From the NCBI GenBank assembly GCA_000002445.1, contig CP000067.1, positions 608,001 through 672,000 of the forward strand: 64,000 bases of DNA, read 5' to 3'. Below, in pieces: positions 30,082-63,278 of the stretch; position 1 is the first letter of the stretch; the number at the start of each line of letters is the position of its first letter. A model generated the notes under the pieces. That model saw nothing but the letters and a program-made list of their open reading frames with translations. It did not search any database and was not told the DNA's origin. The translations under genes were made by a program, and so were the position numbers. The stretch comes from Trypanosoma brucei. Taxonomy: Eukaryota.

Positions 30082-31438
30082 CTTGTTGGAATGGAATGCA
30101 TCGTAACGGTGCCACCGGATTTGAGTGACGGTGCCAGTTGCTGCAAACTTTGGAACAGGTGCGGTTGTGGTGTATCTTCTTGTGCGCTAGACTGTCCATG
30201 ATGGGCGCAAGAGAAATCGAACAGGGGACAGCCGTGGGGAACAATAAATCAAGACGAAAAAAAAGGAACCGAGTCGAAAGCGTTGAACCTGCAACGATTA
30301 CTTCTTGGGAGTAAACGAAGCATGCGGTTTAAAAAAAAAAAGAAACAAGAGTATGATGGGACGAGTGGAGAAAGGTCTTAACCATGTTTTCCACACACAC
30401 ACACACTTTCCATGCTCTCTGTTCTCGCTTCTTTCTTTGATATTTCCATTTGCGGCTTTTTGCTGTTCAGCCCCTCGTGTGTGCATCAGCTCCTGTCGCT
30501 CAGTAAAGTGTATGTTTGCCAACGGAAGGGAAGTTCACCGAATGAAAGTGCCGATGGAACCGGTTTCCGACAGCGTGACGGGTGTTACCTTGATGATAAA
30601 GAAGAGAAGTAAAGGAGAAGAGATGCACAGAAACCGAAAGAAAAAAACGAAGATATGTTAGGTACACCTCTGTCAATGATATTATTATTATTACTCCTAT
30701 TATTGTCTTATTTTATTACTGTCTCTATTTTCTGTTTCACAAAGTGCACAACCGGCTACAGTACTCCATAACCGGGCCGGAACTGTCGTGTGCTCAACAA
30801 CTTACCACTCTGGCTCTCCCATAAATTTTCACTTTCCTTATACCCGAGTTTCCAATCACTCACGTGTCAATGTATATCCTTCTCTTTTTTTCTTCTGTTT
30901 TACTTTACTAACATTTTTTTTTTGATTTAGCTTCTCACCGTCCCTCTCACGTCCTCCTCCTGCGGGAGAAATTCTCATTCGCCTCCTTATACTCTTCGTT
31001 CGGGTTTATTACCAGTTCGAATTACGAAGTGTCGGAAGGCGGATCTTGGAACTGCGTAAGGGACGAAAGAAGAAAGAGAGGACCCTCCAAAATTGGCGCA
31101 CAACCTTTGAAGAGATCGCTGCGTACAGTCATACCATTGTGTCATTTTGTTGTTGCTATTATTGTCCCGCAAATTTGGCTCCTTTGCTTTGTTGGTAAAC
31201 TTCCCTTACGCGGGTGGGTGCTATATAATACACCGAAGAGATCGCCAACTTAGGAAGAAAAGAAGAAAGGAAGAGGTAAAGAGATAGCGAGAGAAAGGGG
31301 GAGTAGTTGGAGAGAGTTCCGTGCTGTAAGAACGACGATAGAAGAATAACGTTTTGTTTTTCCCCCTCCTTTATAAACACGGTTTACACGCAAACAAATA
31401 AGAAAAAGAGGGAGGAGGAAGCTGAAAGAGTGGAAGGT

Positions 31439-34400
31439 ATGGGTGCTTGCATAGCCGCACTAAGAGGGAAGGTCGCGGGTAAAACAAATGATTCACACGG
31501 GATTAGCGACCAGTCGCTGCCGACCGCGGAGAGTACAGATGATAGTGTCAACAACCGTAATGGAAAGTTCAATAAATGCATCCGTGGAGAAGAGAGCATT
31601 TCCTCGGGGGATATGCACGGCAAAGAGGGCAGCGACTTAAGTAAGTCGCTAACGAGTTTATGGGGGGTTCTCTCCAAAACAGAATTTGCTGACTTCTTTC
31701 GAGCACATCCCGAATTGTTGAAGTCCAATTCAGCTGCCGTCATGTGCACTGGCGCGTTTCGTCCCGGAGAACTTGTCGGGGCTTATTGCGTAGTGAAGGA
31801 ACTTCCAGGGGGAACGGTGGGTCGAAGTTTTTTGGTTAAAGCTGTGGACGACAGTGGCCCACCGACGCCCACCGTCACGACACCTGAGGTTGAAGATTCT
31901 GGTAAACGGGAGTTTGTGTTTAAGGTGATGACATTTATTAACCGTAAGAACTTGGTGGAACCGGTATTAGACGATAAGAGGGCTCTTATGAACCTGACAG
32001 GTGACGGTTTACTTCGCCCAGTCCATTTGCTACTCGACGAAGGGAATGAAACAGTGATATCTGTTACCCCTTTTTTGAAGGAAGGTTCGTGCGCTCGTCT
32101 TGCCGGAAAGCTTGAAGAGGATCGGTTACTGTCTATACTGCGTGATGTTGCAAGTGCTCTCCGTCTTCTTCATTCGCACAATATATACCACTGTAACCTG
32201 AAGTTGGAAAACGTTCTTTTGAGGGAGGATGGGAAAGCCTGCCTTGCCGACGCAGCGTTGTGGCGTATCTTCTCTACACAGAGCCGTGATTGCCTTCTCT
32301 TTAATGGTGAACTCGCGTGCATGCCTCCCGAGATGTTCATGATTGATGAAGCTGACAACCAGTCGAAGGACGCGAGCAAAGTAGACATTTGGGGGTTTGG
32401 GCTGTTCATGTACCGTCTGGCGTACGGGCGGGAGCCGTTTGACATTGAAGGAAAGGCACTTGAACAAGTCTGTGAACTAGTTTCTGTTGATAGGCTCCAG
32501 TTTCCTCAACGCAACTGGAGCATCGCGAGTTCGCTTGAGGATGCCATCCGTGTTTGTCTTGACGATGATCCGGAACGTCGACCAACAGTTCCGGGGTTGT
32601 TTAGCTTCTCATTGTTTCGGAACCACAATTTTAATTCTGTTGTGGCTGGAGGAAGTGTCGGGTTACCGGGATTCAGGGCGTCGCATAATGATACTGGACC
32701 AAGTGGTGGGCGCTCTGGCTCGGATAACTACATTAGGTGGGCATACCCAAGGTATCATTGGCGGAAGAACGTGTCACTCGACGAAATGCTCGGGTCTGGA
32801 GGCATCTGTGAAACATATCGGGTGCACCTGCGGCGGCATCCATCTAAGCAGTTCGTGATGAAGGTGCTAAAACGGTCAGTACTGAAGGCTGCCTCACAAT
32901 ACAGAATCAGCACAGACGATCTGCGTCACGCACTAGCTGTTTCGCGACTTATTAACCATCCTAACGTATTAAACCTGCTGGAGATTGTGGACTCGAGGGA
33001 CGGGTGCTTTGCTTCGCAGCAGTTGGCTAAAAGCAGGTTTCTTTACGCGGAGTTTCCCCCGTTGCTGAATCACAAAAACCCTCTCTTCACACTGAAACAG
33101 ATGCTCGCCGATGTCCTCCAGGGGCTTTTCGTGCTTCACCTAAATGGTGTGCCGCATCTCCGTCTGACACCATCAAACATTTTTTATGAGCTGGGCGTTG
33201 GTTTTAGGGTTTCGGACTTTGGTCCTTTGTTCCTTGCACGGGAGGAAATTGTCGAAAGTATGGAAACAGACCAACCACTGTATAGTGTACCACAGTGGGT
33301 GGTTGACGATTTAAAGGTGCCGATCCACATGTCGAGATTCAGTCTTGACGTTTTCTGTGTTGGTTTACTGGCCGCTTCAGCACTCCCTTCAGTTCTGCAT
33401 GAAGACTGGTACCGATTTTCTAATTCAGAGGGGTGTATTCTTGATGTGAAGGGGGTTTGTGAGAAGGTAAAGAATGCCTCCCTTTATCTTAAGCCGATGC
33501 TCGTGGACTTTATCCTCCAAGCGCTAACTAACCCCGCAACAACTGTGAGGGACTTGATGAATCATTCATATTTGAGCGACGCGATCGACGTCAGCAGGCT
33601 CGACGAGATGAAACCGCTGAACATATCGCCTGCTGATATGGAGATGGCCGTGTCAGAGAGGTTTACCACCACTGACGAATCTGGACTATGGAATGTTCTC
33701 GGTCACGACCCAGCGGCAGGGAATGGCCACTTGTGGTGCTCAATGTTCCGCAACGAAGCACTGCCCGACGGCTGCATACGGTCTGGCATTCAATCTGTTA
33801 ATGAAGTTGCGGCTGCAAGGCGGGTTCCTTTTGTTAAGAAACTCGTTTGCGGGCTGTGCCGGTGTGAATTACCCATAGTTTTATTTCTATGCGATAAGTG
33901 TGACGATTACATACGCTGCGCCAAGTGTTCGTTAGTGGATACACACGCCGACGACCACAAACTCAGCCCACACCTTGTCCACACCGTCGGGCAGGATGGG
34001 GTTGATGGCAACTTTTTTGCTTTATTGGTGCCAACATGCAATATATGTGTCGCGCAGTCACTGGAAGCCCTAGAAATGCAGGCCAACCTGCCACACGGAA
34101 CGCTGACGAAAGATATCACCACCCAATCAGTTACTGCGGAGCGAGCCCTACGGCGGCTAACACTTGCGAAGTTGAATCCAGGCCCCAAGGTACTTCCCAA
34201 AGTCTCGGATACTGAAGGTGAGACTTGGGAGGAGGAAGTTGCAAGCTGCCGCGAGACTCGAAACACTGAGCTGTTGTTGCATCAATTTGAACTGAACACT
34301 GTACCGAAGGAGCTGTTTGACCCGCCGCTGCTTCACGTGGCGAGTATTGACCTTAGTTACAACAAGTTAACCAGCCTTCCCGACGATCTGGCCCTTCTTT

Positions 34401-35299
34401 GCAACTTGAGAAGTGTTTCCGTTGCGCATAATGCTCTGACTGTTCTACCAGACAGCATGGGTGAACTCCGTCAACTAGATCGTTTAGACGCGAGCCACAA
34501 TAAACTAAAGGACCTGCCGTTAACATTTGTCAAACTACGCAAGTTGAGCACTGTCACCTTAGACTTCAATGAATTTTCGGGGTTGCCTCGCGTTTTGGAC
34601 GATCTCATTGTTGCCACCGCATCGACACCGCAGCTTTCCACCATTTATTTAGCGGAGAACACCAACATAACAAGGTTCCCCGATTACACGAACCTTGCAA
34701 TCTTACCCACGCTTAAGTTGGCCTTAGACAACGAACCCAGTGTTTATCAAACGTATCTCAATGAAAACCTTGCAGAAAAGCTACCCAACATTGGCATGCT
34801 TTGGAATAAAATATATCCAGATCGAATCGTTGATAACGTGTTTTGTGGGAGCTTGCGCACCACTCAATCACAGGTGGTGTACGATAAACTTGGCATAAAA
34901 AACCTCTTGACAGTGGGAAGGGACCTCGTTCCCGTCCCTCCGGTTGGTGGAAAACATCTCGTTATCTCATTAGATGATATTGAGGAGGCGGATATCCGTT
35001 GTACATTTGATGAGGCTGTCAACTTCATTGATATGAGTGTGGAAAAAGGTGAAGGGTGTTTGGTCCACTGCTTCGCCGGACTCTCGCGTTCCGCCACGAC
35101 AGTAATAGCATACTTCATGATGAAGAGAGGCATGAGACTTGGCGATGCGTACCAGCTAACGAAAAGGGGCCGACCTTCTATTTACCCCAATGAGGGTTTC
35201 TTTAGACAAATGATTGAACTGGATGGTGAGTTGTTCCCCGATGACCCGCCACTGCAACTGGAGGACATTGGAAGAGAAAGTCCCAATGTAAGGGTGTAG
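31439..35299 (+). CDS. Multidomain signalling protein: an N-terminal MGxC acylation motif, two kinase-like domains (both predicted pseudokinases), a ZZ-type zinc finger, leucine-rich repeats, and a C-terminal dual-specificity phosphatase with an intact active site.
   Basis: The ORF track starts at a TTG (31307); the first ATG is at 31439, giving MGACIAAL. Kinase-like domain 1 has HCNLKLEN instead of HRDLKPEN (near 32189) and ADA instead of DFG. Kinase-like domain 2 has HLRLTPSN (near 33155) while DFG is retained. The Cys cluster CGLCRC...CDKCDDYIRCAKC...H...H (about 33848-33975) fits a ZZ finger. LRRs span about 34280-34700. The phosphatase signature HCFAGLSRSAT (CX5R) is near 35066. Confidence 0.85.
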   Translation: MGACIAALRGKVAGKTNDSHGISDQSLPTAESTDDSVNNRNGKFNKCIRGEESISSGDMHGKEGSDLSKSLTSLWGVLSKTEFADFFRAHPELLKSNSAAVMCTGAFRPGELVGAYCVVKELPGGTVGRSFLVKAVDDSGPPTPTVTTPEVEDSGKREFVFKVMTFINRKNLVEPVLDDKRALMNLTGDGLLRPVHLLLDEGNETVISVTPFLKEGSCARLAGKLEEDRLLSILRDVASALRLLHSHNIYHCNLKLENVLLREDGKACLADAALWRIFSTQSRDCLLFNGELACMPPEMFMIDEADNQSKDASKVDIWGFGLFMYRLAYGREPFDIEGKALEQVCELVSVDRLQFPQRNWSIASSLEDAIRVCLDDDPERRPTVPGLFSFSLFRNHNFNSVVAGGSVGLPGFRASHNDTGPSGGRSGSDNYIRWAYPRYHWRKNVSLDEMLGSGGICETYRVHLRRHPSKQFVMKVLKRSVLKAASQYRISTDDLRHALAVSRLINHPNVLNLLEIVDSRDGCFASQQLAKSRFLYAEFPPLLNHKNPLFTLKQMLADVLQGLFVLHLNGVPHLRLTPSNIFYELGVGFRVSDFGPLFLAREEIVESMETDQPLYSVPQWVVDDLKVPIHMSRFSLDVFCVGLLAASALPSVLHEDWYRFSNSEGCILDVKGVCEKVKNASLYLKPMLVDFILQALTNPATTVRDLMNHSYLSDAIDVSRLDEMKPLNISPADMEMAVSERFTTTDESGLWNVLGHDPAAGNGHLWCSMFRNEALPDGCIRSGIQSVNEVAAARRVPFVKKLVCGLCRCELPIVLFLCDKCDDYIRCAKCSLVDTHADDHKLSPHLVHTVGQDGVDGNFFALLVPTCNICVAQSLEALEMQANLPHGTLTKDITTQSVTAERALRRLTLAKLNPGPKVLPKVSDTEGETWEEEVASCRETRNTELLLHQFELNTVPKELFDPPLLHVASIDLSYNKLTSLPDDLALLCNLRSVSVAHNALTVLPDSMGELRQLDRLDASHNKLKDLPLTFVKLRKLSTVTLDFNEFSGLPRVLDDLIVATASTPQLSTIYLAENTNITRFPDYTNLAILPTLKLALDNEPSVYQTYLNENLAEKLPNIGMLWNKIYPDRIVDNVFCGSLRTTQSQVVYDKLGIKNLLTVGRDLVPVPPVGGKHLVISLDDIEEADIRCTFDEAVNFIDMSVEKGEGCLVHCFAGLSRSATTVIAYFMMKRGMRLGDAYQLTKRGRPSIYPNEGFFRQMIELDGELFPDDPPLQLEDIGRESPNVRV

Positions 35300-53908: not shown

Positions 53909-56900
53909 ATGACAACAAAAAATAGGCCGATTGAGGAGGCTGCAGCGGTGTACATACTGCGCATTATACATACTATACTTCTTTGGTTGGGTGTTACTCT
54001 CGGCTCCGTACTCGTCGTATGTTCTCAACCACGCTTTGTCCCCATTCGGACAGCGATCTCGAGTTTTGTTTATCTTTTGGCCTCTCTGTGTGTAATATTC
54101 GTTAGCATTCTGGAACTCAAAGGTCATATTTCTACCATCAGCGGTGTAACTCACTGGATGGACAGAGTGGGATGTTCCTATTGGTTTTTGCTGCTATTTA
54201 TCCGGTGCATCAAACCCTCTCATGCAGTGGAATGGGTCGCTTCTGCACTACTACCTCTGCTGGTGCTAACTGAATGGGCCGTCGTGACGACTTATATTCT
54301 TATTTCCAGCACTTATCATCCTGTTATTACCGTCGATCTTTTTCTTACGGTTCTCCATACGGTGGTGTTTACCGCCTTTGTTGGCCTGGACCGTTTGATG
54401 ATCAGCGATATTACCGTCATTTTCTCTGCCGCTCGTGCCGCTCAGGATGCAGACGCTGTTGAAGCCTGTGGTGGAAATATGGGTATGTCACGCAGTGGCC
54501 CCGGAAGCTTCAGGTCTGACGATATGTTGGAACTGAGCCATGAGCTTCAGAGTAGTGCCTCTTCTTATTCTTCAGCCCTCTGCAGGGGTAATTCACGTTG
54601 TTATATATTACGTGTGGTGGCACGCCGCTGGGGCGGGACGTACGCCGTGCTTGTATTTGTGCGGCTTCTTTACGAGTTTGGAGGCCTTCTCCCAGCGCAT
54701 CTCTTGCGAATACTGGTAGACAACTTGTCCGTAGTTGAAAATAAGCACGGAAAGAAACACGGAAGTGATGGGCTGTGTATGGCAAGTGTTATGATCGTGG
54801 TAATTATTGCTTACAATTTAATATGCACCTTTCTGCGTGCACACTACAGAGTGGCTTTGCAGAAAATTGTCTTATACACTCGTGGTCTCCTAACTTCAGA
54901 GCTGTTCCGCTGCACACTGTGTCGCCGGAAGCATCTATTTGACGGTAGAACGCAGGGTGATATTATGAACCACCTCTCATTGGATGTTGCGCGCGTAGCT
55001 GATGCAGCAAGTTCTTTTAATGATCTCTGGGCGCTGCCACTGCAACTCTCCCTTGCGTTGTACCTCTTGTACATACAAATCTCGTTTGCATTCGTTGCGG
55101 GTGTGGTGGTGTCAGTTGCACTGATACCCATCAACATGTGGCTGACGAAGCGCATCCAAGGTGTCATGAGTGAACTCATGCGGGAAAATGATGAACGTGT
55201 CCTGCGAATCACGGAGATAGTGAGGAACATTATTTACGTCAAAATGTGTGGCTGGTCGCAATTAGTTCAGCAGTGGGTGAAAGAATCACGTGATCGGTAC
55301 TTGGTGCATCTCAGGTGGCTCAAGTACTTGGATGCATTCTGTGTCTTCTTCTGGGCAACTACGCCTACACTTGTTTCACTTGTAACATTTATAACCTTTA
55401 TTTTGATGGGTGGGGAGTTGACACCCGGAAAGGCTGTAACCGCGTTAGCCCTGTTCAACTCACTTACAATGCCGTTGAATGCGTATCCATGCGTCATTAA
55501 TGGTCTCGTGGAGTCGTATGTGTCGTGGTGTCGGCTTAGTCCCTTCCTGGTAATGCGACCAGACGCATGTCACGGCGACTTGTATGGTTTTGCGTCAGGG
55601 GAAAGTGACTCAGGCACCAAAATGTTTACCGAAATAACGGAGGAATACCAAGACATGGTGGTGAGTAGCGAAGAGATGCCCTGTGCTTCCTCATTGAATG
55701 AAATACAACCACTTCTTCAAGCAAAGGGTTGTGTTGGCGAGATGCGGCGGCAGCGTCTCGCGGGGATCCATGGGCTTCCTCATCCCTTCAGAAGAAATCA
55801 CGATTTGCTCATTGATATCAGAAGCGGCGTCATAAGGCTCAATACGCAAGGTGGCGCAGGGTTGCCGCGACCCAGCTTCATGCTTCATATTCCAACCTTC
55901 CAAGCGACGAGCGGTCAACTTATTGCCGTTGTGGGTGTTTCTGGGTCGGGGAAAAGTACATTTCTTGACGGTCTTGCAGGTGAACACCTGATTGACCCAA
56001 ATGATGCCACCGGCCACGCGGCAGTCTCACGCTTCTCCACGGCTTATGTCGAGCAACAACCTTTTTTGATGTCGGGAACACTGCGGGAGAATATTTTGAT
56101 GGGACTCATGTACGACTCTGTGCGCTACGAGGCGGTTATAAATGCTGTAGCTCTCACTCAGGACCTTCAAACTTGTTTCTATCCCGATGGTGACACTTTT
56201 CTCGTAGGGGACAGAGGGATCCGACTAAGTGGAGGGCAGAGGGCACGGGTTGCTCTTGCGCGTGCTCTATACGCGGGAAAGGAGTTATATTTAATTGATG
56301 ACATCCTTGGCTGTCTTGACCCAACAGTAGCGCGTCACATTGTCACAAATGCCCTCGTTGGTTCAGCAAAAAGCGGGAGTTGCGTTATCGTTGCCACACA
56401 CAACCAGGAGCTCGTTGAGCGGGCAGATGTAGTGTACAGGTGTGTGGAGGGTCAACTTCTTTTTTCTCAGCGGTTAGTGAAAACAGCTGCTACTACAGTT
56501 GCCGAGCCAAGCTCGCCGGCGGCTAAGCCACATGCAACCCAACAACATGTGGCGTTGGCTAATAATGAGAAAGGTCATGGAAAGGTAGGCAATGTTCTAG
56601 GTGATGTGCCATGGCCCTCGAGCGATAGTTCACCTGCGCGTGCGCCCGTCGCAACGCCAGAGAGCGGTTCAATAGAAGCGGCAGAAGTTCTGGAGACATC
56701 TAAACACGGCACTCTTGCGTGGGAAACACTGGCGTGTTACATCGGTCGGGTCGGGTGGAAGCTGTCTGCCTTCATTATCATATCTGCCGCTTTGATGCAA
56801 ATATCTCGCAATGCGGGTGACCAGTACGTTGTAACGTGGGCTAAGAGTGGTGATGGAAATACCACGCGATTCATTTGGTCATTGGCCATCTTAGCTGGTG

Positions 56901-58420
56901 TGAACAGTGTGTTGGCGCTTGCGCGTGGTTTCAGTTTTGCTTTCGGTGGTCTGCGGGCCGCAAAAAGGCTACACAATGAGTTATTGGGCCACGTGATGTC
57001 TGCCACGTTTACCTTCTTCTCAGACACGCCGCCCGGCCGCATCATCAACCGGCTATGTGGTGATACATACACCATTGATGATTCACTGCCATTCATAATG
57101 AACATTTTGTTGGCGCAAACGTTTTTACTTTGCGGAGCGGTAGTCGTAATATTACTCAACTCCTCGTCGTTGCTAATAGTTACACTCATTCCGGTTTCTG
57201 TGCTCTACCATCGTATTCAATGTCCGTATCGAGCGTCGTCGAGAGAGCTGCGACGACTTGAAGAAGCGGCTAACGCGCCACTGCTCGATACAATGCGTGA
57301 TGCGCTGGACGGTGGGGTAGTAATTCGCAGTTTGGGCGGTAGAGTGGTGATGTCTCACCTGCGGCGTGCGAGTCGAAACACGGATCTGTTGTTGCGAGTA
57401 AAGTTTAATTCCATGCTTCTCGGTGCATGGTTTACCATCCGGCTGGAGCTTGTTGGCCTCCTTCCACTTATTTTTGTAGGAGGCACCGCTATCTATTACC
57501 ATGGCAGCGCCTCCGCCCCTTTTATAGGGCTTGCACTCGCCTATGTGCAGCCCCTGACGTCATATGTGGGAGGCTTGCTTGGTGCGTTTGCCTCCACGGA
57601 AACAGAGCTTATTAGCGTGGAGCGCGTGAGACAATACTTTTCATTGGCGAGCGAGGAGCCACGAACTCTGGGCATGTTTTTTTCACCTCCACTCTCCAAC
57701 TGGCCCAGCGGTGGTCAAGTTGTTTTGAGCAACGTGTCAATGCGGTACGACCCAAGCGGACCGGAGGTGTTGCGGTCGCTGAGCTTTCATGTAAATGCTG
57801 GGGAGAAGGTGGCGATAGTAGGCCGGACAGGAGCGGGGAAATCTTCCATTTTTTCGGCGTTGCTCCGACTTGTGGAAATCGAGTCGGGATCCATCCACAT
57901 CGATGGATACGACACTCGGCGGCTACCACTTGAGGTTCTACGCACCCGCTTAAGTGTCCTTCCGCAACAACCGTTCATCTTTAGTGGTTCACTCCGGCAG
58001 AACATTGACCCATTTGGGCTTCACTCGGAAGACGCTGTGCGTGACGTTGCAACCTCCGTTAAACTAGACGGTGTTGCATTGGATTACAATGTCACTGACA
58101 GCAGTCGCGTCAGTGGAGGTCAACGCCATCTGATTGCACTTGCCCGTGTAATACTCCAGCGGTCTCCACTGCTGTTGTTGGATGAACCGACTGCACAAAG
58201 TAGTGCCGAGGCGGAGGCAGCGTTGTGGAGCTCGTTGGCCGAACATCTGAGGAGTACAACGGTGTTGTGCATCACACACAAATTGTCACATATTGACTTC
58301 TTCGATCGTGTCATTGTCATTGAGAATGGCCATGTTGCTAGTGACGGAACTGTTGCTCAACTCCGAGCGGCCTCTGTGTGGCCGTTTTCGTCCCCCAATG
58401 CCGATGCTTCGCTCACATAA
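53909..58420 (+). CDS. ABC transporter, ABCC/MRP subfamily, full length (TMD0-TMD1-NBD1-TMD2-NBD2).
   Basis: The 1503 aa ORF has many TM helices. NBD1 has Walker A GVSGSGKST (about 55931), the signature LSGGQRARVALARAL, and a degenerate Walker B LIDDILGCLD typical of ABCC NBD1. NBD2 has GRTGAGKSS (about 57821), VSGGQRHLIALARV, and a canonical LLLDEPTA. Confidence 0.9.
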   Translation: MTTKNRPIEEAAAVYILRIIHTILLWLGVTLGSVLVVCSQPRFVPIRTAISSFVYLLASLCVIFVSILELKGHISTISGVTHWMDRVGCSYWFLLLFIRCIKPSHAVEWVASALLPLLVLTEWAVVTTYILISSTYHPVITVDLFLTVLHTVVFTAFVGLDRLMISDITVIFSAARAAQDADAVEACGGNMGMSRSGPGSFRSDDMLELSHELQSSASSYSSALCRGNSRCYILRVVARRWGGTYAVLVFVRLLYEFGGLLPAHLLRILVDNLSVVENKHGKKHGSDGLCMASVMIVVIIAYNLICTFLRAHYRVALQKIVLYTRGLLTSELFRCTLCRRKHLFDGRTQGDIMNHLSLDVARVADAASSFNDLWALPLQLSLALYLLYIQISFAFVAGVVVSVALIPINMWLTKRIQGVMSELMRENDERVLRITEIVRNIIYVKMCGWSQLVQQWVKESRDRYLVHLRWLKYLDAFCVFFWATTPTLVSLVTFITFILMGGELTPGKAVTALALFNSLTMPLNAYPCVINGLVESYVSWCRLSPFLVMRPDACHGDLYGFASGESDSGTKMFTEITEEYQDMVVSSEEMPCASSLNEIQPLLQAKGCVGEMRRQRLAGIHGLPHPFRRNHDLLIDIRSGVIRLNTQGGAGLPRPSFMLHIPTFQATSGQLIAVVGVSGSGKSTFLDGLAGEHLIDPNDATGHAAVSRFSTAYVEQQPFLMSGTLRENILMGLMYDSVRYEAVINAVALTQDLQTCFYPDGDTFLVGDRGIRLSGGQRARVALARALYAGKELYLIDDILGCLDPTVARHIVTNALVGSAKSGSCVIVATHNQELVERADVVYRCVEGQLLFSQRLVKTAATTVAEPSSPAAKPHATQQHVALANNEKGHGKVGNVLGDVPWPSSDSSPARAPVATPESGSIEAAEVLETSKHGTLAWETLACYIGRVGWKLSAFIIISAALMQISRNAGDQYVVTWAKSGDGNTTRFIWSLAILAGVNSVLALARGFSFAFGGLRAAKRLHNELLGHVMSATFTFFSDTPPGRIINRLCGDTYTIDDSLPFIMNILLAQTFLLCGAVVVILLNSSSLLIVTLIPVSVLYHRIQCPYRASSRELRRLEEAANAPLLDTMRDALDGGVVIRSLGGRVVMSHLRRASRNTDLLLRVKFNSMLLGAWFTIRLELVGLLPLIFVGGTAIYYHGSASAPFIGLALAYVQPLTSYVGGLLGAFASTETELISVERVRQYFSLASEEPRTLGMFFSPPLSNWPSGGQVVLSNVSMRYDPSGPEVLRSLSFHVNAGEKVAIVGRTGAGKSSIFSALLRLVEIESGSIHIDGYDTRRLPLEVLRTRLSVLPQQPFIFSGSLRQNIDPFGLHSEDAVRDVATSVKLDGVALDYNVTDSSRVSGGQRHLIALARVILQRSPLLLLDEPTAQSSAEAEAALWSSLAEHLRSTTVLCITHKLSHIDFFDRVIVIENGHVASDGTVAQLRAASVWPFSSPNADASLT

Positions 58421-58640
58421 GTGCATAAGTTTGAGACATAAGCATCGTAAATGAACGAACCCACATCATACCGCGTTTCGGATGCATGCCTTTAAGTTTG
58501 GAAATCGTATGCTGCCATTCCCAGAGCGCGAGAAACTTTTCCGCCACTTTACTTCCCCTTGATGAGCGGTGGAGGTTAGCTTCCATTCCCACTCTGTCCC
58601 ACCGCTGCTGATTAAAGAAGGACTGTTTGTAGGTTCAACA

Positions 58641-59375
58641 ATGAGGCGGCCCAATGGTATGATTGCTATTTTAACGGGTGCTGGTATCTCTGCCGAGTCG
58701 GGCATTTCAACATTCCGTGATCAGAACGGCTTATGGGAAAACCACCGCGTGGAGGATGTTTGTACTCCTGCCGCCTTCCTCAAACAACCGACAGTCGTAC
58801 AGCGTTTTTACAACGAACGCCGGAGGGCCCTTCTTTCACCGGAGGTGAAGCCCAATGCTTCGCATCAGGCGCTTGCGAGGCTTCAACGTGAATACAAGGA
58901 TGGTCAAGTGGTTATCATTACGCAGAATATTGACGACTTGCACGAGCGGGCAGGATCAAGGCAAGTTTTGCACATGCATGGCGAACTGTTGAAGGTGCGC
59001 TGTACCGCGACAGGACGCGTGTTTGAGTCAAGGGAGGATGTGATCCATGGTGAATCGAAATGTGAATGCTGCGGAGTCGTAGAAACTCTAAGACCGCATA
59101 TAGTATGGTTTAACGAAATGCCACTGTATATGGATGTAATTGATGAAGTGGTGCAAAACGCGGGGCTTTTCGTGGCTGTGGGTACTTCCGGTAACGTATA
59201 CCCTGCAGCGGGTCTTGTGATGATTGCAAAAGCACATGGAGCAGAAACACTTGAACTCAACCTGGAACCCAGTGGGAACTGCAGGGACTTCGATCGGTCC
59301 GTTTACGGGCCGGCGTCTGTCATTGTTCCTGCTTGGGCCGACGAGGTGCTTCACGGAAAGGGTCCCGCGGCATGA
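58641..59375 (+). CDS. Short NAD-dependent protein deacylase (sirtuin, CobB/SIRT5-like class).
   Basis: The ORF track starts at a GTG (58569); the first ATG is at 58641. The NAD-binding motifs are GAGISAESGISTFRD and ITQNIDDLHERAG, and the catalytic His is in HMHGEL. The zinc module shows only C...CxCC rather than two CxxC pairs. Probably a SIR2-related protein of the trypanosome rp2/rp3 type. Confidence 0.85.
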   Translation: MRRPNGMIAILTGAGISAESGISTFRDQNGLWENHRVEDVCTPAAFLKQPTVVQRFYNERRRALLSPEVKPNASHQALARLQREYKDGQVVIITQNIDDLHERAGSRQVLHMHGELLKVRCTATGRVFESREDVIHGESKCECCGVVETLRPHIVWFNEMPLYMDVIDEVVQNAGLFVAVGTSGNVYPAAGLVMIAKAHGAETLELNLEPSGNCRDFDRSVYGPASVIVPAWADEVLHGKGPAA

Positions 59376-59495
59376 GCCACTGCTCATTTTATATTCTTTC
59401 CTTTTCCTTCCCTTGTCTTTGCTTTATCCATTGTTGTTGTTGAGCTGCTCCAACCTCATCTTTTTGATGGCGTTCGTGTTTTTTTTTTTGTTCCA
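59376..59495 (+). promoter_or_regulatory. Polypyrimidine tract ending in ...ttgttccAG, between the sirtuin and the small membrane-protein gene.
   Basis: C/T-rich (cattttatattctttccttttccttcccttgtctttgctttatcc...gtgtttttttttttgttccag). Confidence 0.45.
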
Positions 59496-59857
59496 GGAAC
59501 TTGCCGTTGCAGTTTGAGTGGCTGTGTTGGAGTTGTGGCTTTGTTATGTCGTTTCGACGAATAAAAATGGTAGAGCAAAAAGTTCGCATCTCCTTGTCTC
59601 TGTACTCTCCCCTCCATTTCGCCTTCAAGTTAATCTCCGCATTGCTTGTTATCGTCACCATTACTGCTGTTTTAATTTCGTCCTTTGTCTTCTTTTGTGG
59701 ACCACATAAAAACGTTGGGAAGAAAGCACGCTCACACACTCTACACCTAACCGGTAGCAAAAAGAAAGCAAGATAAAGTAACACAAATAACAGTAATACC
59801 TCGCTCTTTTCATCATCTTTAACCACTAAACAGTTGCCTGCGTAATATTCAGCACTA

Positions 59858-60334
59858 ATGGGCTTCGGTGCAGTCGTCAGCTACTTTGGGCTCATCTTCT
59901 TGCTCACGGTGTTTATCGCCTCGGGTGTTCAAATCATGATGTACCCCACCTCAGGCGCCATGATGTTGGCGAAGAGTAACTTCCCCAAGTTGCTGGAAAT
60001 GGCTGGCATTCAGTACCGCCTCTCTGTTGCTGAATACACCATGGTTGTGCAGGGCATTGGTGCTTCCTGCATTGGCTTTTCCCTGCTAATGCTGCTGGGC
60101 GTTGGTCGTTCCTTCTTTGCCTTCTTGCTCGCCGTTTTGGTTTCTCTGCTTACACTCGCCTTCCACATTGACCTCCGTGCCCCCACGAAGATGAGTGAAA
60201 CGAATGCCTTTCAGGTCTTGAAGAATGCCGCCATTTTCGGTGGACTGATGTTTGTTGCAGGGAGCTCTGGTCGCTCCCGCGCCGCCCCACGGGCCGCCAC
60301 CAATGCGACGGGGAAAGAAAAAAAGAAGAATTAA
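59858..60334 (+). CDS. Small four-helix integral membrane protein (158 aa).
   Basis: Clean ATG start. Four hydrophobic segments are present (VSYFGLIFLLTVFIASGV; VVQGIGASCIGFSLLMLLGV; FFAFLLAVLVSLLTLAF; AAIFGGLMFVAG). A polyY tract plus AG lies upstream (59376-59495). Confidence 0.6.
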   Translation: MGFGAVVSYFGLIFLLTVFIASGVQIMMYPTSGAMMLAKSNFPKLLEMAGIQYRLSVAEYTMVVQGIGASCIGFSLLMLLGVGRSFFAFLLAVLVSLLTLAFHIDLRAPTKMSETNAFQVLKNAAIFGGLMFVAGSSGRSRAAPRAATNATGKEKKKN

Positions 60335-61785
60335 CCGACTCATGCATGCACCGCTTGCCGGGTCACCCCTCCGTAGAGAGAGAGAGAAAAAAAAGGAACT
60401 TCAGTGGATATTGCAGCGAAGAAAGAAAGAATAGGGAGGAGAGGGGGTTTGCATTACGTTCACAAGGGTTGTTTTGATTGATTACCTTCCCCTTTCTGTT
60501 TCCGTTTCCTTTTTCTTTTCTTTTCTTTTTTTTTGCTTTGTCTCATCTCATCTTTTCTTTTTATCTTTCCTCTCCTTATTCCCCTCGGTTTTCTCTTCTT
60601 CGCGTACTTGCTCTCCTGCCCCCCTGCGATTTTTTTTTATTCCTTTGCTTTTCTCTATGAATTCCTTCCGCACCCGATTATCTTAGTTATTTACTTCCCA
60701 CTGGCCCACTCCACTGTTGTGAGGGACGCCTGAAGGAAGTCATGTTGGGGAATGTTTGAATCACATGAATGAGTATTTGCAAAGAGAAGTAAACGCAGGT
60801 AAACAAAAAGTGGGAGAAAATTATATTATTTTTTTTGTGTGTGTTTCTTCCATTTTTTTTTTTAGTGGTGGGAACTTTTGACAACAGGAAGTGAGGGGTT
60901 GAGAGAAATCTCAAGAGGGAGAAAATGTGGAACGGAAAGAAAAGAAAAGAAAAGAGAAACAAAGATGAGTATCTTGGCAGTTGTAAGGGGAGGAATGGGA
61001 GGAACGGAGAAGTAATGACAAGTGAATCGACAATACCTTTAAGGGAAGAAGAAAAAAAAAGAAAACGAAAAAAAAAAATACATATTCATAACAACAATAA
61101 TATTGTTAATAACACACGCACCCGTATACATATATGGGGAAGAAAAGGAAAGGAAAAAAGGAGGGGATCCACAAAACAAAAAAAAGAGGGGGATGAAAAT
61201 GTTTTTATCAAGAGAAGTTTGGCACCATTAAAGGGAGGAAAAGAAACAGTCACTTCTGAAGTAAAAAAAAAGAAGAGAAAGATGCGAAGGTTAAACCCGA
61301 CTCATTTTAAAAACAAAGAGGGAAAGTAGAGAGGTTTGGTGGCACATTTTGTTACGCACTGAAACAATTTTTCTCCCCTTTTCAACGAAAAAATGAGAGA
61401 AAAATGGAAGTGCAATGATGATGTTCGACGCCAATATTGTTATTGTTGTTAATTACGTTGCACTGCACAGGGTCGTAAAAATGTGAGGACAAATAGAAAC
61501 TAAACTGGATCGAAACAAACTAAAGCACGAAAGACAAGAAGGGGGAAAACAAAAGAAAGGAAGAGGTAAAGAGATGATGGACTCAAAATCTATTTTGGGA
61601 CCTCCTACCCCCAACTGGTATAACAGGCGTGCAGGGAGAGGCCGTTTATTGGCGTTATCTAAAAATGTAATATTGCATGTGGTGTGGGCATTTAATTGTA
61701 GGAGTGCAGTGAAAGCATGACGGGGCGGGCATTAGTTATTTGCCGGCCTTTAGCCATGTCCTTCAAATAAGCACTTGTTTTGGTT

Positions 61786-61832
<47 letters not shown>
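61786..61832. repeat. Compound (TA)7-(GT)16 microsatellite.
   Basis: The sequence tatatatatatatat followed directly by gtgtgtgtgtgtgtgtgtgtgtgtgtgtgtgt. Confidence 0.95.
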
Positions 61833-61833
<1 letters not shown>

Positions 61834-62240
61834 GACAAATATGTTTCTTCTCTCTTTTTTCCCCCTTCTTCTTTTTTTTTTCTTTGAAAGAAAGAATTGT
61901 ATTTGTTTCTATTTTTCGTCCGTACGTCTTGGCGCCGGGTATCTATCCTGGAACACGTGGAAGTTATTTCGGTTACAAGGATACTTAGTAGTTCACTGGC
62001 GCATCACCTACAGCGCGGCGCACTGCACGAAAGCAAACAACGGTTAGAAACGCTAGCGAAGCGCACGTAAGTTTGCAAAAACAAGCAAAACCAAACAAAA
62101 AATCAGCTGCGTAAAATAAGGGCACAGAGCAAGGCACAGAATAGTTGGAAAACAGAGGTTATATATATATATATTTATTTATTTATTGTATAGGGTGTGC
62201 GGGTACGCGTTGGTTTGCACCACTGCGGAGGTAACTAACC

Positions 62241-62477
62241 ATGCTTCTTAAGGTGAAGACTGTAAGCAACAAGGTTATTCAAATTACCTCACTTACTGAT
62301 GATAACACAATAGCGGAGTTGAAGGGTAAGTTAGAAGAGTCAGAAGGCATTCCTGGGAATATGATCCGCCTTGTGTATCAGGGAAAGCAATTGGAGGATG
62401 AGAAGCGGCTGAAAGATTACCAAATGTCCGCCGGTGCGACATTTCACATGGTGGTGGCCCTGCGCGCGGGTTGCTGA
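62241..62477 (+). CDS. NEDD8-like ubiquitin-like protein (78 aa) with a non-canonical C-terminus (…ALRAGC instead of …LRGG).
   Basis: It aligns along its whole length with NEDD8 (MLLKVKT...; GIPG..RLVYQGKQLEDEK; HMVVALR). The stop codon comes immediately after Ala-Gly-Cys. Confidence 0.8.
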   Translation: MLLKVKTVSNKVIQITSLTDDNTIAELKGKLEESEGIPGNMIRLVYQGKQLEDEKRLKDYQMSAGATFHMVVALRAGC

Positions 62478-63278
62478 TATATTGAGGAGAAACTCTAAAA
62501 CAGTTTGCTTCGGCATCTCTCAACAACTCATCCCATTACCATGTGAATGGCGAAATTGCACAAAGCTGGTGTCAAACAGCAGCATACGGCGCTGCATGGT
62601 TTCTATCGGCTGCGTCGTGCTCAGATGGTTAAGAGGGAGAAGATTGACCAGAGGAGAAATGAAGGAAGTTAAAGGCCGTTCAAAGAACGAAATTGGTACA
62701 AGGAGGCAAAAAGTCATGAAAAAATAGGCTATTGGGGACCTTAGCAGACTCGGACCTCAGCGGTATATATATATATATATATTCTTTCGTTTGTCTTGAT
62801 TTTACTTTCGTTCACCCCTTTGTTCATTCCTAATCCTTTCTCTGTCCTCTTTTTCCCACCTCAACTGTCGCTGTGGAAAAAAAAAGACAGGGAAATCGAC
62901 TGTTTGGAACACTGTTGAAATGGTGCGATACCAATGAGGCTCCACAGACTTCGCGTTTTCCGATCCTTCCTGATGCGCAACCGTTTCGGTTAATATATCA
63001 AAAGGAAGTGATGTCATGTGCGCAGGTGATTTTTGACCACTCAACTCTTAGCATACGCCAAAACACACACAGACAGACAAATAGTTTTCTTCTCTACAAT
63101 TGAGTGCGGGGAACCGCACATTATCTTTTCCAGGTGCTTTCAAGAAGTCAAAACACGAGGACGAGGGGAGACTGTTTTTTTGGAGGTGGACAGAAAATCA
63201 ACCCGCAGGTGAGGTTGCGGCAGCAGCGCAACCAAACCGGTCAGTCGGCAACTTGTGTTTTCCCATCGTCCAATCAAA

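What the first reader, a model, noticed from the sequence alone, without database searches (positions are those of the whole stretch)
62241..62477. NEDD8-like protein ending in Ala-Gly-Cys instead of the di-glycine conjugation motif
The 78-aa protein is NEDD8-like along its full length. However, the C-terminus reads …VVALRAGC-stop, where NEDD8 and ubiquitin have …LRGG followed by a short propeptide. Either the mature conjugatable end is …RAG after removal of one Cys by a protease (a non-canonical Ala-Gly tail), or this modifier is processed or activated differently, or the protein is not conjugated at all. The reading is unambiguous in the DNA (gcg ggt tgc tga).
Basis: seen in the sequence. 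Interest (0 to 1): 0.5.

Follow-up and report, generated by a model that had tools for sequence, protein, structure and literature searches.

The report
Trypanosome NEDD8 with Ala-Gly tail
This is the already characterised NEDD8 modifier of Trypanosoma brucei (TbNedd8, Tb927.4.2540); its odd ...Arg-Ala-Gly end is real and is shared by all ten trypanosomatid orthologues I could read, which makes it a conserved lineage variant of the usual Gly-Gly end and not an error or a dead gene.

Summary
Window 62241-62477 (+) encodes a 78-aa ubiquitin-fold protein ending ...VVALRAGC-stop (gcg ggt tgc tga). It is identical to PDB chains 2LRW and 5GO0 and to the protein in four Trypanozoon assemblies. It lies two genes downstream of SIR2rp3 (Tb927.4.2520), which places it at Tb927.4.2540, the gene published as TbNedd8. 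Reviews citing Liao et al. 2017 report conjugation to cullins and lethal RNAi.

The Ala-Gly is not a sequencing variant. Ten orthologues all read AL[R/K]-A-G: six Trypanosoma species, Leishmania mexicana, Novymonas and two unnamed trypanosomatid-like contigs. Ala uses all four of its codons, and dN/dS is 0.02-0.07 at saturated dS. Residues after the Gly vary (C, T, V, R, Y, or a 7-aa tail). One orthologue stops directly after the Gly. This marks Gly77 as the mature conjugating end and Cys78 as a one-residue propeptide.

All 113 non-kinetoplastid NEDD8-like proteins I retrieved whose C-terminus could be read end in GG.

The protein is known. The conserved Ala75-equivalent is an unusual but modest variant. 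It implies adapted E1/E2/deneddylase enzymes and a distinctive Lys-ε-Ala-Gly tryptic remnant.

The parts
62241..62477 (+). Complete coding sequence of TbNedd8 (Tb927.4.2540), 78 codons plus stop
   Evidence: ORF and translation. Pfam ubiquitin E=4.3e-20. Identical to PDB 2lrw_A/5go0_A and to Q584D3_TRYB2/AAZ10845.1. The gene identifier follows from its position two genes after SIR2rp3 = Tb927.4.2520 and from PMC12816148.
62241..62471 (+). Inferred mature modifier, Met1-Gly77 (beta-grasp domain plus the flexible tail ...A73-L74-R75-A76-G77)
   Evidence: Amino-acid conservation among 10 orthologues runs up to Gly77 and then stops. The L012 orthologue ends at this Gly. dN/dS is 0.02-0.07.
62457..62459 (+). 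Ala73 codon (gcc), equivalent to NEDD8 Ala72, the residue that separates NEDD8 from ubiquitin (Arg72) at the E1
   Evidence: Alignment A2: Ala in all 10 kinetoplastid sequences and in human NEDD8, Arg in ubiquitin. The role of residue 72 is described in PMC3731359.
62466..62468 (+). Ala76 codon (gcg), at the place of Gly75 in canonical NEDD8 and ubiquitin: the non-canonical residue
   Evidence: Read directly. Ala in all 10 orthologues, encoded by GCG, GCT, GCC and GCA. GG in the 113 non-kinetoplastid NEDD8-like proteins retrieved whose tail could be read.
62469..62471 (+). Gly77 codon (ggt), inferred conjugating C-terminal glycine (equivalent to Gly76)
   Evidence: Invariant in alignment A2. 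Encoded by GGT, GGA, GGG and GGC in different species. It is the last residue of the L012 orthologue.
62472..62474 (+). Cys78 codon (tgc), inferred one-residue propeptide removed on maturation
   Evidence: This position is C, C, T, V, V, R, Y, C, absent, or the start of a 7- or 34-aa extension in the orthologues. Removal itself is inferred and not shown.
62475..62477 (+). Stop codon tga

Best explanation
The ORF is the single-copy NEDD8 orthologue of Trypanosoma brucei (TbNedd8, Tb927.4.2540). It is made as a 78-residue precursor. A C-terminal hydrolase removes Cys78 and exposes Gly77. The heterodimeric NEDD8 E1 (the UBA3/APPBP1 orthologues) adenylates and thioesterifies Gly77. The modifier passes to TbUbc12 and is then attached by an isopeptide bond to the conserved lysine of cullins, which switches on cullin-RING ubiquitin ligases. 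The penultimate residue is Ala where almost all other eukaryotes have Gly. This Ala was fixed before Trypanosoma and the Leishmania-type lineages separated and has been kept by selection since. The trypanosomatid E1, E2, processing protease and deneddylases must therefore accept a methyl side chain at that position. Shown here: the sequence, its identity with the published protein, the conservation of Ala-Gly and the variability of what follows. Taken from the literature: conjugation to cullins and essentiality. Inferred: removal of Cys78, Gly77 as the attachment residue and adaptation of the enzymes.
For: (1) Identity. The sequence matches PDB 2lrw_A and 5go0_A exactly and is the exact protein in four Trypanozoon records. 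The upstream neighbour is SIR2rp3, 99% identical to the T. b. gambiense protein, whose identifier is Tb927.4.2520 (PMC3484402). One 158-aa gene lies between them, so this gene is the third in steps of ten, matching 'Nedd8 (Tb927.4.2540)' in PMC12816148.
(2) NEDD8 character. RUB1 and NEDD8 score above ubiquitin. Profile hits are NEDD8/RUB1 proteins. The NEDD8-type residues L2, K4, E31, E32, Y45 and A72 are present.
(3) Conjugation. The reviews PMC7600729 and PMC7958763 report from Liao et al. 2017 that six cullins are TbNedd8 substrates and that RNAi is lethal. Tb927.4.2540 was enriched with TbCul-A, -D and -E.
(4) Ala-Gly is selected. All 10 orthologues read AL[R/K]AG. Ala is encoded by all four codons and Gly by four codons. 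dN/dS is 0.02-0.07 where dS could be estimated (0.6 to about 2.6); in many pairs it was too saturated to estimate.
(5) Gly77 is the mature end. The residue after it is C/T/V/R/Y or a 7-34 aa extension. The L012 orthologue ends ...ALKAG-stop.
(6) The variant is lineage-specific.
Against: No experiment that I could read shows the mature C-terminus, the removal of Cys78 or an Ala-Gly remnant on a cullin lysine. The primary paper (Liao et al. 2017) is not in the held library, so the conjugation evidence is second-hand. With human enzymes the penultimate Gly matters. Phage selection on human NAE kept Gly75 in 57 of 58 clones, and the one G75S variant was activated by NAE but not passed to Ubc12 (PMC3731359). 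An Ala there would therefore be expected to handicap a canonical cascade. By residue counting alone the protein is only modestly closer to NEDD8 than to ubiquitin: 10 versus 7 discriminating positions in T. brucei, 8 versus 8 in Leishmania and 5 versus 10 in L012. I could not obtain bodonid, diplonemid or euglenid orthologues, so the age of the change beyond Trypanosomatidae is unknown.
Confidence: 0.86

Rival explanations
1. Sequencing, assembly or strain artefact: the true codon is GGN and the protein ends in the canonical ...LRGG.
For: A single C-to-G change at 62467 would turn gcg into ggg.
Against: The identical protein is present in four Trypanozoon records from separate projects and in two PDB constructs. 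Nine further orthologues all have Ala, encoded by GCG, GCT, GCC and GCA.
Confidence: 0.01
2. A non-conjugated ubiquitin-like protein (like Hub1/UBL5 or a stand-alone UBL domain) that has lost the di-glycine and acts only by non-covalent binding.
For: The canonical GG is missing. Human NAE/Ubc12 handle a G75 substitution poorly.
Against: The terminal Gly is invariant at saturated synonymous divergence, while everything after it varies or is absent. That pattern is expected for a conjugating glycine and not for a decayed tail. The literature reports cullin conjugates and co-purification with three cullins. No other NEDD8 candidate from trypanosomes appeared.
Confidence: 0.03
3. It is conjugated, but by a different route: either Cys78 is kept and used (for example as a thiol handle or modified residue), or activation is by a non-canonical E1 of the UBA5/ATG7 type that handles X-Gly tails, as for UFM1 (...VG-SC), ATG8 and ATG12. 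The UFM1/ATG tails and their E1s are from my own knowledge.
For: The tail resembles UFM1 (non-Gly, Gly, short removable tail ending in Cys). Canonical E1s normally see Gly-Gly.
Against: Cys78 is not conserved: it is T, V, R or Y in other species and absent in L012. The body of the protein is NEDD8/ubiquitin-like, not UFM1- or ATG8-like, and Pfam returned only ubiquitin-family models. Ala at the residue-72 position, the NAE specificity determinant, is conserved. [quoted passage not shown] Trypanosomatids encode UBA3 (PMC7958763).
Confidence: 0.05
4. It is a divergent ubiquitin paralogue (as the GenBank name 'ubiquitin, putative' says) handled by the ubiquitin E1, and not NEDD8.
For: Database names say 'ubiquitin, putative'. 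Identity to ubiquitin (41%) is close to identity to human NEDD8 (44%). The Leishmania-type and L012 orthologues share as many or more discriminating residues with ubiquitin.
Against: Residue 72 is Ala in all orthologues, and positively charged residues at 72 are what NAE rejects. I recall, but did not verify here, that Arg72 is also required by the ubiquitin E1. Glu31 is kept in all orthologues and Glu32 in all but L012, which has the ubiquitin-type Asp32. HMMER ranks RUB1/NEDD8 above ubiquitin. It is a stand-alone single-copy gene, not a poly-ubiquitin or ribosomal fusion. It co-purifies with cullins and is treated as Nedd8 in two independent studies.
Confidence: 0.03

Closest known systems
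NEDD8 / Rub1 (human NEDD8, PDB 1NDD; Arabidopsis RUB1, 1BT0; yeast Rub1)
   Same: The beta-grasp fold and size match. It has Ala at position 72, Glu31-Glu32, Leu2, Lys4 and Tyr45. It is a stand-alone precursor with a short C-terminal extension after the conjugating Gly. Cullins are reported as substrates and Ubc12/DCNL are present in the organism.
   Different: The penultimate residue is Ala where the 113 other NEDD8-like proteins whose tail I could read have Gly. There is a one-residue insertion after position 16. Residues Q40-Q41 are replaced by [K/N]-M, and Ile44 by Val/Leu. The propeptide is only 0-1 residue in most species. Overall identity to human NEDD8 is only 44%.
TbNedd8 itself (Tb927.4.2540; PDB 2LRW and 5GO0; Liao et al. 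2017 J Biol Chem 292:1081)
   Same: The sequence is identical. The window feature is this published gene.
   Different: Nothing differs in sequence. In the papers I could open I found no discussion of the Ala-Gly tail or of its conservation across trypanosomatids. The primary paper could not be read.
Ubiquitin
   Same: Same fold, 41% identity, and a C-terminal ...LR-x-G.
   Different: Ubiquitin has Arg72 and Gly75 and is encoded as poly-ubiquitin or ribosomal fusions. This protein has Ala at both positions and is a single stand-alone gene.
UFM1, ATG8 and ATG12 ('X-Gly' modifiers; from my own knowledge, not tested here)
   Same: A single C-terminal Gly is preceded by a non-Gly residue. The UFM1 precursor also ends in a very short tail with a terminal Cys (...VG-SC).
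   Different: There is no sequence relationship beyond the common fold, and Pfam gave only ubiquitin-family hits. Those modifiers use non-canonical E1s (UBA5, ATG7), whereas this protein keeps the NAE determinant Ala72.
Engineered G75 variants of ubiquitin/NEDD8 tails (Zhao et al. 2013, PMC3731359)
   Same: A non-Gly small residue sits at position 75 before the conjugating Gly76.
   Different: With human enzymes G75S is charged by NAE but is not passed to Ubc12. The trypanosomatid protein is the natural, essential modifier, which implies an adapted cascade.

Membership tests
NEDD8/Rub1 | Ubiquitin beta-grasp fold of about 76 residues | tested here: met
   Pfam PF00240 E=4.3e-20, residues 3-74 of 78. 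An identical sequence has solved structures 2LRW and 5GO0.
NEDD8/Rub1 | Closer to NEDD8/Rub1 than to ubiquitin | tested here: met
   phmmer against PDB gives RUB1 64.7 bits, NEDD8 about 62 bits and ubiquitin about 54 bits. Profile hits outside Trypanosoma are named NEDD8/RUB1. There are 10 NEDD8-only versus 7 ubiquitin-only residues. The margin is modest, and it vanishes or reverses in the Leishmania-type and L012 orthologues.
NEDD8/Rub1 | Non-basic small residue (Ala/Thr/Gln) at position 72, the E1 specificity determinant | tested here: met
   Ala73 (equivalent to Ala72) in T. brucei and in all 9 other orthologues. The role of residue 72 is described in PMC3731359 and PMC7677368.
NEDD8/Rub1 | C-terminal Leu-Arg-Gly-Gly with conjugation through the last Gly | tested here: not met
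   The tail is Leu-Arg-Ala-Gly. The last Gly is invariant, but the penultimate Gly is replaced by Ala in all 10 orthologues. This is a departure in one canonical feature. The chemistry needs only the terminal Gly.
NEDD8/Rub1 | Synthesised as a precursor whose residues after the terminal Gly are removed | tested here: inconclusive
   One residue (Cys78) follows the Gly. That position is variable or absent among orthologues, which fits a propeptide. Cleavage itself was not observed.
NEDD8/Rub1 | Covalent attachment to cullins through NAE (UBA3/APPBP1) and Ubc12 | not testable with these tools
   Literature only. Six cullins are reported as substrates and RNAi is lethal (PMC7600729; PMC7958763, both citing Liao et al. 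2017). [quoted passage not shown]
Ubiquitin | Arg72 and the LRGG tail; encoded as head-to-tail repeats or ribosomal-protein fusions | tested here: not met
   Ala is at the residue-72 position and Ala at the residue-75 position. It is a single stand-alone 78-codon ORF between unrelated genes.
UFM1 / ATG8 / ATG12 type X-Gly modifiers | Sequence membership of those families (their Pfam models) | tested here: not met
   Pfam returned only ubiquitin, Rad60-SLD, Ubiquitin_2 and OTU1_UBXL models at E<=0.01. Only the tail pattern is alike.

The most novel reading that the evidence does not exclude
Ala at the penultimate position is not a tolerated oddity but an extra specificity determinant. On this reading, the trypanosomatid NEDD8 E1, Ubc12, processing hydrolase and deneddylases (DEN1/CSN5 equivalents) have co-evolved pockets that accept or prefer Ala-Gly. 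That would insulate neddylation from the ubiquitin cascade and from Gly-Gly-specific proteases, and would make these enzymes structurally distinct from the human ones. A by-product is that trypsin would leave a Lys-epsilon-Ala-Gly remnant (+128.0586 Da, not +114.0429 Da). Neddylation sites in these parasites could then be mapped directly and told apart from ubiquitin sites without any mutant.
Probability: 0.35. Interest if true: 0.55.

Novelty: already known. Interest (0 to 1): 0.3.

Why it matters
The gene itself is a published, essential modifier, so nothing new is discovered at that level. What is worth keeping is the lineage-wide Ala-Gly end.

In other eukaryotes ubiquitin, NEDD8 and ISG15 all leave the same di-glycine remnant after trypsin. 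Neddylation sites can then be told apart only with an engineered NEDD8 R74K plus Lys-C digestion (PMC12751068). In trypanosomatids the natural remnant should be Ala-Gly. Standard di-Gly searches and anti-K-epsilon-GG antibodies would probably miss neddylation sites, and a +128.059 Da search would find them specifically.

Human NAE/Ubc12 handle a residue-75 substitution poorly (PMC3731359). The parasite enzymes must therefore differ around the tail-binding channel. That is relevant because UBA3 has been proposed as a drug target in these parasites (PMC7958763).

Tried and rejected
(1) The search of protein representatives with the 78-aa protein. All 150 listed hits were multi-repeat poly-ubiquitin-like proteins that outscore any single-domain relative, so it was useless for finding distant kinetoplastid orthologues.

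(2) Direct and profile searches with the search for homologous proteins. They reached only Trypanosoma and then jumped to animal and fungal NEDD8. The Leishmania-type orthologues are too divergent for the word index. I reached them through synteny instead, using SIR2rp3 homologues and their contigs.

(3) Metagenome scan with an alignment truncated before the tail, to avoid biasing towards Ala-Gly. It gave one locus, a UBL domain inside a 390-aa RING-type protein ending ...LRGG internally, which is irrelevant. I found no bodonid, diplonemid or euglenid sequence.

(4) Contigs that led nowhere. L010 (P0023) carries a neurochondrin gene and is probably from an animal. L011 is bacterial. L013 ends before the NEDD8 position.

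(5) Literature. Liao et al. 2017 and Ponder & Bogyo 2007 are not held. No held paper contains NEDD8, 'Ala-Gly' and trypanosom* together.

(6) Co-variation of UBA3, Ubc12 or DEN1 with Ala75 could not be tested.

(7) The idea that Cys78 has a role of its own (lipidation or a thiol handle) was rejected because the residue is not conserved.

Full report
**Observation.** Window 62241-62477 on the + strand is an uninterrupted ATG-to-TGA ORF of 78 codons. It translates to MLLKVKTVSNKVIQITSLTDDNTIAELKGKLEESEGIPGNMIRLVYQGKQLEDEKRLKDYQMSAGATFHMVVALRAGC. The last codons are ctg cgc gcg ggt tgc tga, so Ala76 is at 62466-62468, Gly77 at 62469-62471 and Cys78 at 62472-62474. The ORF is a real gene. It matches Pfam ubiquitin (PF00240) at E=4.3e-20 over nearly its whole length. 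It lies on the same strand as all other large ORFs of the window, as expected for a trypanosome polycistronic unit.

**Identity.** A search of PDB sequences found two chains, 2lrw_A and 5go0_A ('Ubiquitin, putative', T. brucei brucei TREU927). They contain the 78 residues exactly, behind a His tag. An exact-sequence look-up found the same 78-aa protein under four accessions: AAZ10845.1 (UniProt Q584D3_TRYB2), CBH10548.1 (T. b. gambiense DAL972), SCU65347.1 and RHW72873.1. UniRef describes it as shared by four Trypanozoon taxa, and T. equiperdum is among the source names.

The gene 2.9 kb upstream (58641-59375) is a SIR2-family protein, 99% identical to the T. b. gambiense NAD-dependent deacetylase. 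T. brucei has one class III sirtuin, TbSIR2rp3 = Tb927.4.2520 (PMC3484402). One 158-aa predicted membrane protein lies between them (59858-60334). The ubiquitin-like gene is therefore the second gene after Tb927.4.2520. That fits the identifier Tb927.4.2540, which PMC12816148 gives for T. brucei Nedd8. The window feature is the published TbNedd8.

**Is it NEDD8 and not ubiquitin?** Among single-domain PDB sequences, Arabidopsis RUB1 (64.7 bits) and human NEDD8 (about 62 bits) score above ubiquitin (about 54 bits). A profile of the trypanosome sequences retrieves proteins named NEDD8, RUB1 or ubl1 from flatworms, insects and fungi. I looked at the positions where human NEDD8 and ubiquitin differ. 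There the T. brucei protein has the NEDD8 residue at 10 (L2, K4, I15, E31, E32, Y45, E53, K54, G64, A72) and the ubiquitin residue at 7. That margin is modest. However, the list includes Ala72, the residue by which the NEDD8 E1 rejects ubiquitin (PMC3731359; PMC7677368). Functional evidence comes from the literature. Reviews report from Liao et al. 2017 that TbNedd8 RNAi is lethal, lowers global ubiquitination, and that six cullins were validated as substrates (PMC7600729; PMC7958763). An independent study found Tb927.4.2540 enriched with TbCul-A, -D and -E, and TbUbc12 plus a DCNL-like protein with TbCul-F (PMC12816148). I could not open the primary paper.

The tails I found were these.
- T. 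rangeli ...ALRAGMGPGAVF, T. melophagium ...ALRAGV and T. vivax ...ALRAGV.
- T. cruzi ...ALRAGT, T. grayi ...ALRAGC, and a second T. rangeli strain with a 34-residue extension after RAG.

Leishmania-type orthologues were out of reach of the word-indexed protein search, so I went through synteny. I retrieved homologues of SIR2rp3, fetched their contigs, and read the ubiquitin-family ORF downstream.
- L. mexicana ...MVLALRAGR (L007 13825-14067).
- Novymonas esmeraldas ...ALRAGY (L008).
- An unnamed Leishmania-like Logan contig ...ALRAGC (L009).
- A more divergent Logan contig in which the gene follows SIR2 directly and ends ...MVLALKAG-stop (L012 2952-3191).

On a neighbour-joining tree of the sirtuins, L012 sits at the base of the non-Trypanosoma trypanosomatid group (a rough tree with no support values). 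The block SIR2 - about 157 aa - NEDD8 - about 302 aa - PLD is conserved in T. vivax, T. melophagium, T. cruzi, T. grayi, L. mexicana, Novymonas and L009.

In the alignment of all ten sequences, the motif A-L-[R/K]-A-G is invariant apart from the R/K. At the DNA level, Ala76 is GCG, GCT, GCT, GCC, GCC and GCG in the six Trypanosoma species. It is GCA, GCC, GCG and GCA in the four others. Gly77 uses GGT, GGA, GGG and GGC. Pairwise dN/dS is 0.02-0.07, with dS from 0.6 to beyond saturation. In Trypanosoma, 45 of the 53 invariant amino-acid positions show more than one codon. Any Ala codon is one transversion away from Gly, so its retention at this depth means selection. Of these, 113 end the last strand with GG, only the four Trypanosoma sequences have AG, and three did not match the tail pattern.

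**What is the mature end?** Conservation stops exactly at Gly77. The next position is C, C, T, V, V, R, Y or C, or the start of a 7- or 34-residue extension where T. rangeli has lost the stop, and it is absent in L012. A conserved glycine followed by free variation is the signature of a modifier propeptide. The tail-less L012 protein would be born mature, as is described for P. falciparum NEDD8 (PMC7677368). I therefore take Gly77 as the conjugating residue and Cys78 as a one-residue propeptide. This is inference, since no data on the processed protein were available to me. Cys78 is not conserved, so any special role for it is unlikely.

**Mechanism and what the Ala implies.** The pathway is the ordinary neddylation cascade: C-terminal trimming, adenylation and thioester formation on UBA3/APPBP1, transfer to Ubc12, then isopeptide formation on the cullin lysine. 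Trypanosomatids encode UBA3, Ubc12 and a DCNL-like protein. The unusual point is that canonical E1-dependent modifiers almost always present Gly-Gly. In phage selection on human NAE, 57 of 58 clones kept Gly75. The single G75S clone was activated normally (K1/2 2.8 uM) but was not transferred to Ubc12. For the ubiquitin cascade, non-native residues at 74/75 block E2-to-E3 transfer (PMC3731359). An essential NEDD8 with Ala at this position therefore implies that the trypanosomatid E1-to-E2 step, the processing hydrolase and the deneddylases accommodate the extra methyl group. Whether Ala is merely tolerated or also serves to insulate neddylation from ubiquitin enzymes is open.

**Practical consequence.** Trypsin cuts after Arg75, so a neddylated lysine should carry Ala-Gly (+128.0586 Da, isobaric with a Gln residue). 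The remnant left by ubiquitin, NEDD8 and ISG15 elsewhere is Gly-Gly (+114.0429 Da). That shared remnant is what forced the NEDD8 R74K/Lys-C workaround (PMC12751068). Trypanosomatids thus carry a natural mass tag for neddylation sites. The masses are my own arithmetic.

**Comparison with known families.** By descent, position, key residues and reported substrates this is NEDD8. It fails one canonical feature, the penultimate Gly. It also departs in a one-residue insertion after position 16, in [K/N]-M for Gln40-Gln41, and in Val/Leu for Ile44. The Leishmania-type proteins are still more divergent, with a two-residue N-terminal extension and Met for Arg42. The X-Gly tail recalls UFM1, ATG8 and ATG12, which use non-canonical E1s (my knowledge). 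There is no sequence membership there, and the NAE determinant Ala72 is kept.

**Verdict.** The refutation test fails, and the gene is already known and characterised. In the papers I could read, nothing discusses the Ala-Gly tail. Its conservation across trypanosomatids, including a tail-less form, may therefore be a small new point. It remains a modest variant of a known system and not a new kind of thing. Interest 0.3.

Noticed in passing
window 58641-59375 (+): TbSIR2rp3 (Tb927.4.2520), a class III sirtuin. In one search its best hits after the trypanosomatids are bacterial CobB-type deacylases at 56-62% identity (Gammaproteobacteria, Arenicella, Rhodospirillum), which is very high for a eukaryote-bacterium pair. 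The gene identifier also appears in the gene list of a study of lateral gene transfer in Leishmania (PMC4711719).
   Followed up: partly
window 53909-62477; loci L001-L005, L007-L009: The gene order SIR2rp3 - about 157-aa membrane protein - NEDD8 - about 302-aa protein - PLD-domain protein is conserved from T. brucei to Leishmania and Novymonas. Upstream of SIR2 there is an ABC transporter in Trypanosoma (window 53909-58420; L005) but a roughly 1400-1490-aa protein kinase in the Leishmania-type contigs.
   Followed up: partly
L012 2952-3191 (Logan SRR22803243): A divergent trypanosomatid-like NEDD8 orthologue ends ...ALKAG-stop. It has no propeptide and has Lys where the others have Arg before Ala-Gly, a natural counterpart of the engineered NEDD8 R74K. 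Here the gene follows SIR2 directly, without the 157-aa gene, and contig GC is only 40-50%. The organism is not identified.
   Followed up: partly
L006 187-441 and protein P0124 (T. rangeli): T. rangeli has lost the stop codon after residue 78. One strain has a 7-residue tail (RAG-MGPGAVF) and another a 34-residue tail. This fits a tail that is discarded, but the two strains differ, which could also reflect annotation or assembly differences.
   Followed up: no
L007 13825-14067, L008 13607-13849, L009 13311-13553: The Leishmania-type NEDD8 is unusually divergent: 42-49% identical to T. brucei, with a two-residue N-terminal extension. Lys4 and Lys6 are replaced, Arg42 becomes Met, His68 becomes Asn and Lys48 becomes Arg. 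Purifying selection within the group is nevertheless very strong (dN/dS about 0.02-0.08). Several of these positions lie in or next to the surface that binds partners in other organisms (my knowledge).
   Followed up: no
window 31307-35299 (+): A 1330-aa protein combines a protein-kinase domain, leucine-rich repeats and a C-terminal dual-specificity phosphatase domain. Kinase and phosphatase in one chain is an unusual architecture.
   Followed up: no
window 11197-15600 (+): A 1467-aa protein has a Kelch beta-propeller of the KLHDC2/KLHL20 type. Kelch proteins were reported as partners of a trypanosome cullin (PMC12816148). Whether this one is among them was not checked.
   Followed up: no
window 62160-62174 and 62764-62782; 60400-61900: (TA)n microsatellites flank the NEDD8 gene on both sides. 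The 1.9-kb intergenic region upstream is low-complexity, with purine- or pyrimidine-rich runs that produce many spurious short ORFs on both strands.
   Followed up: no
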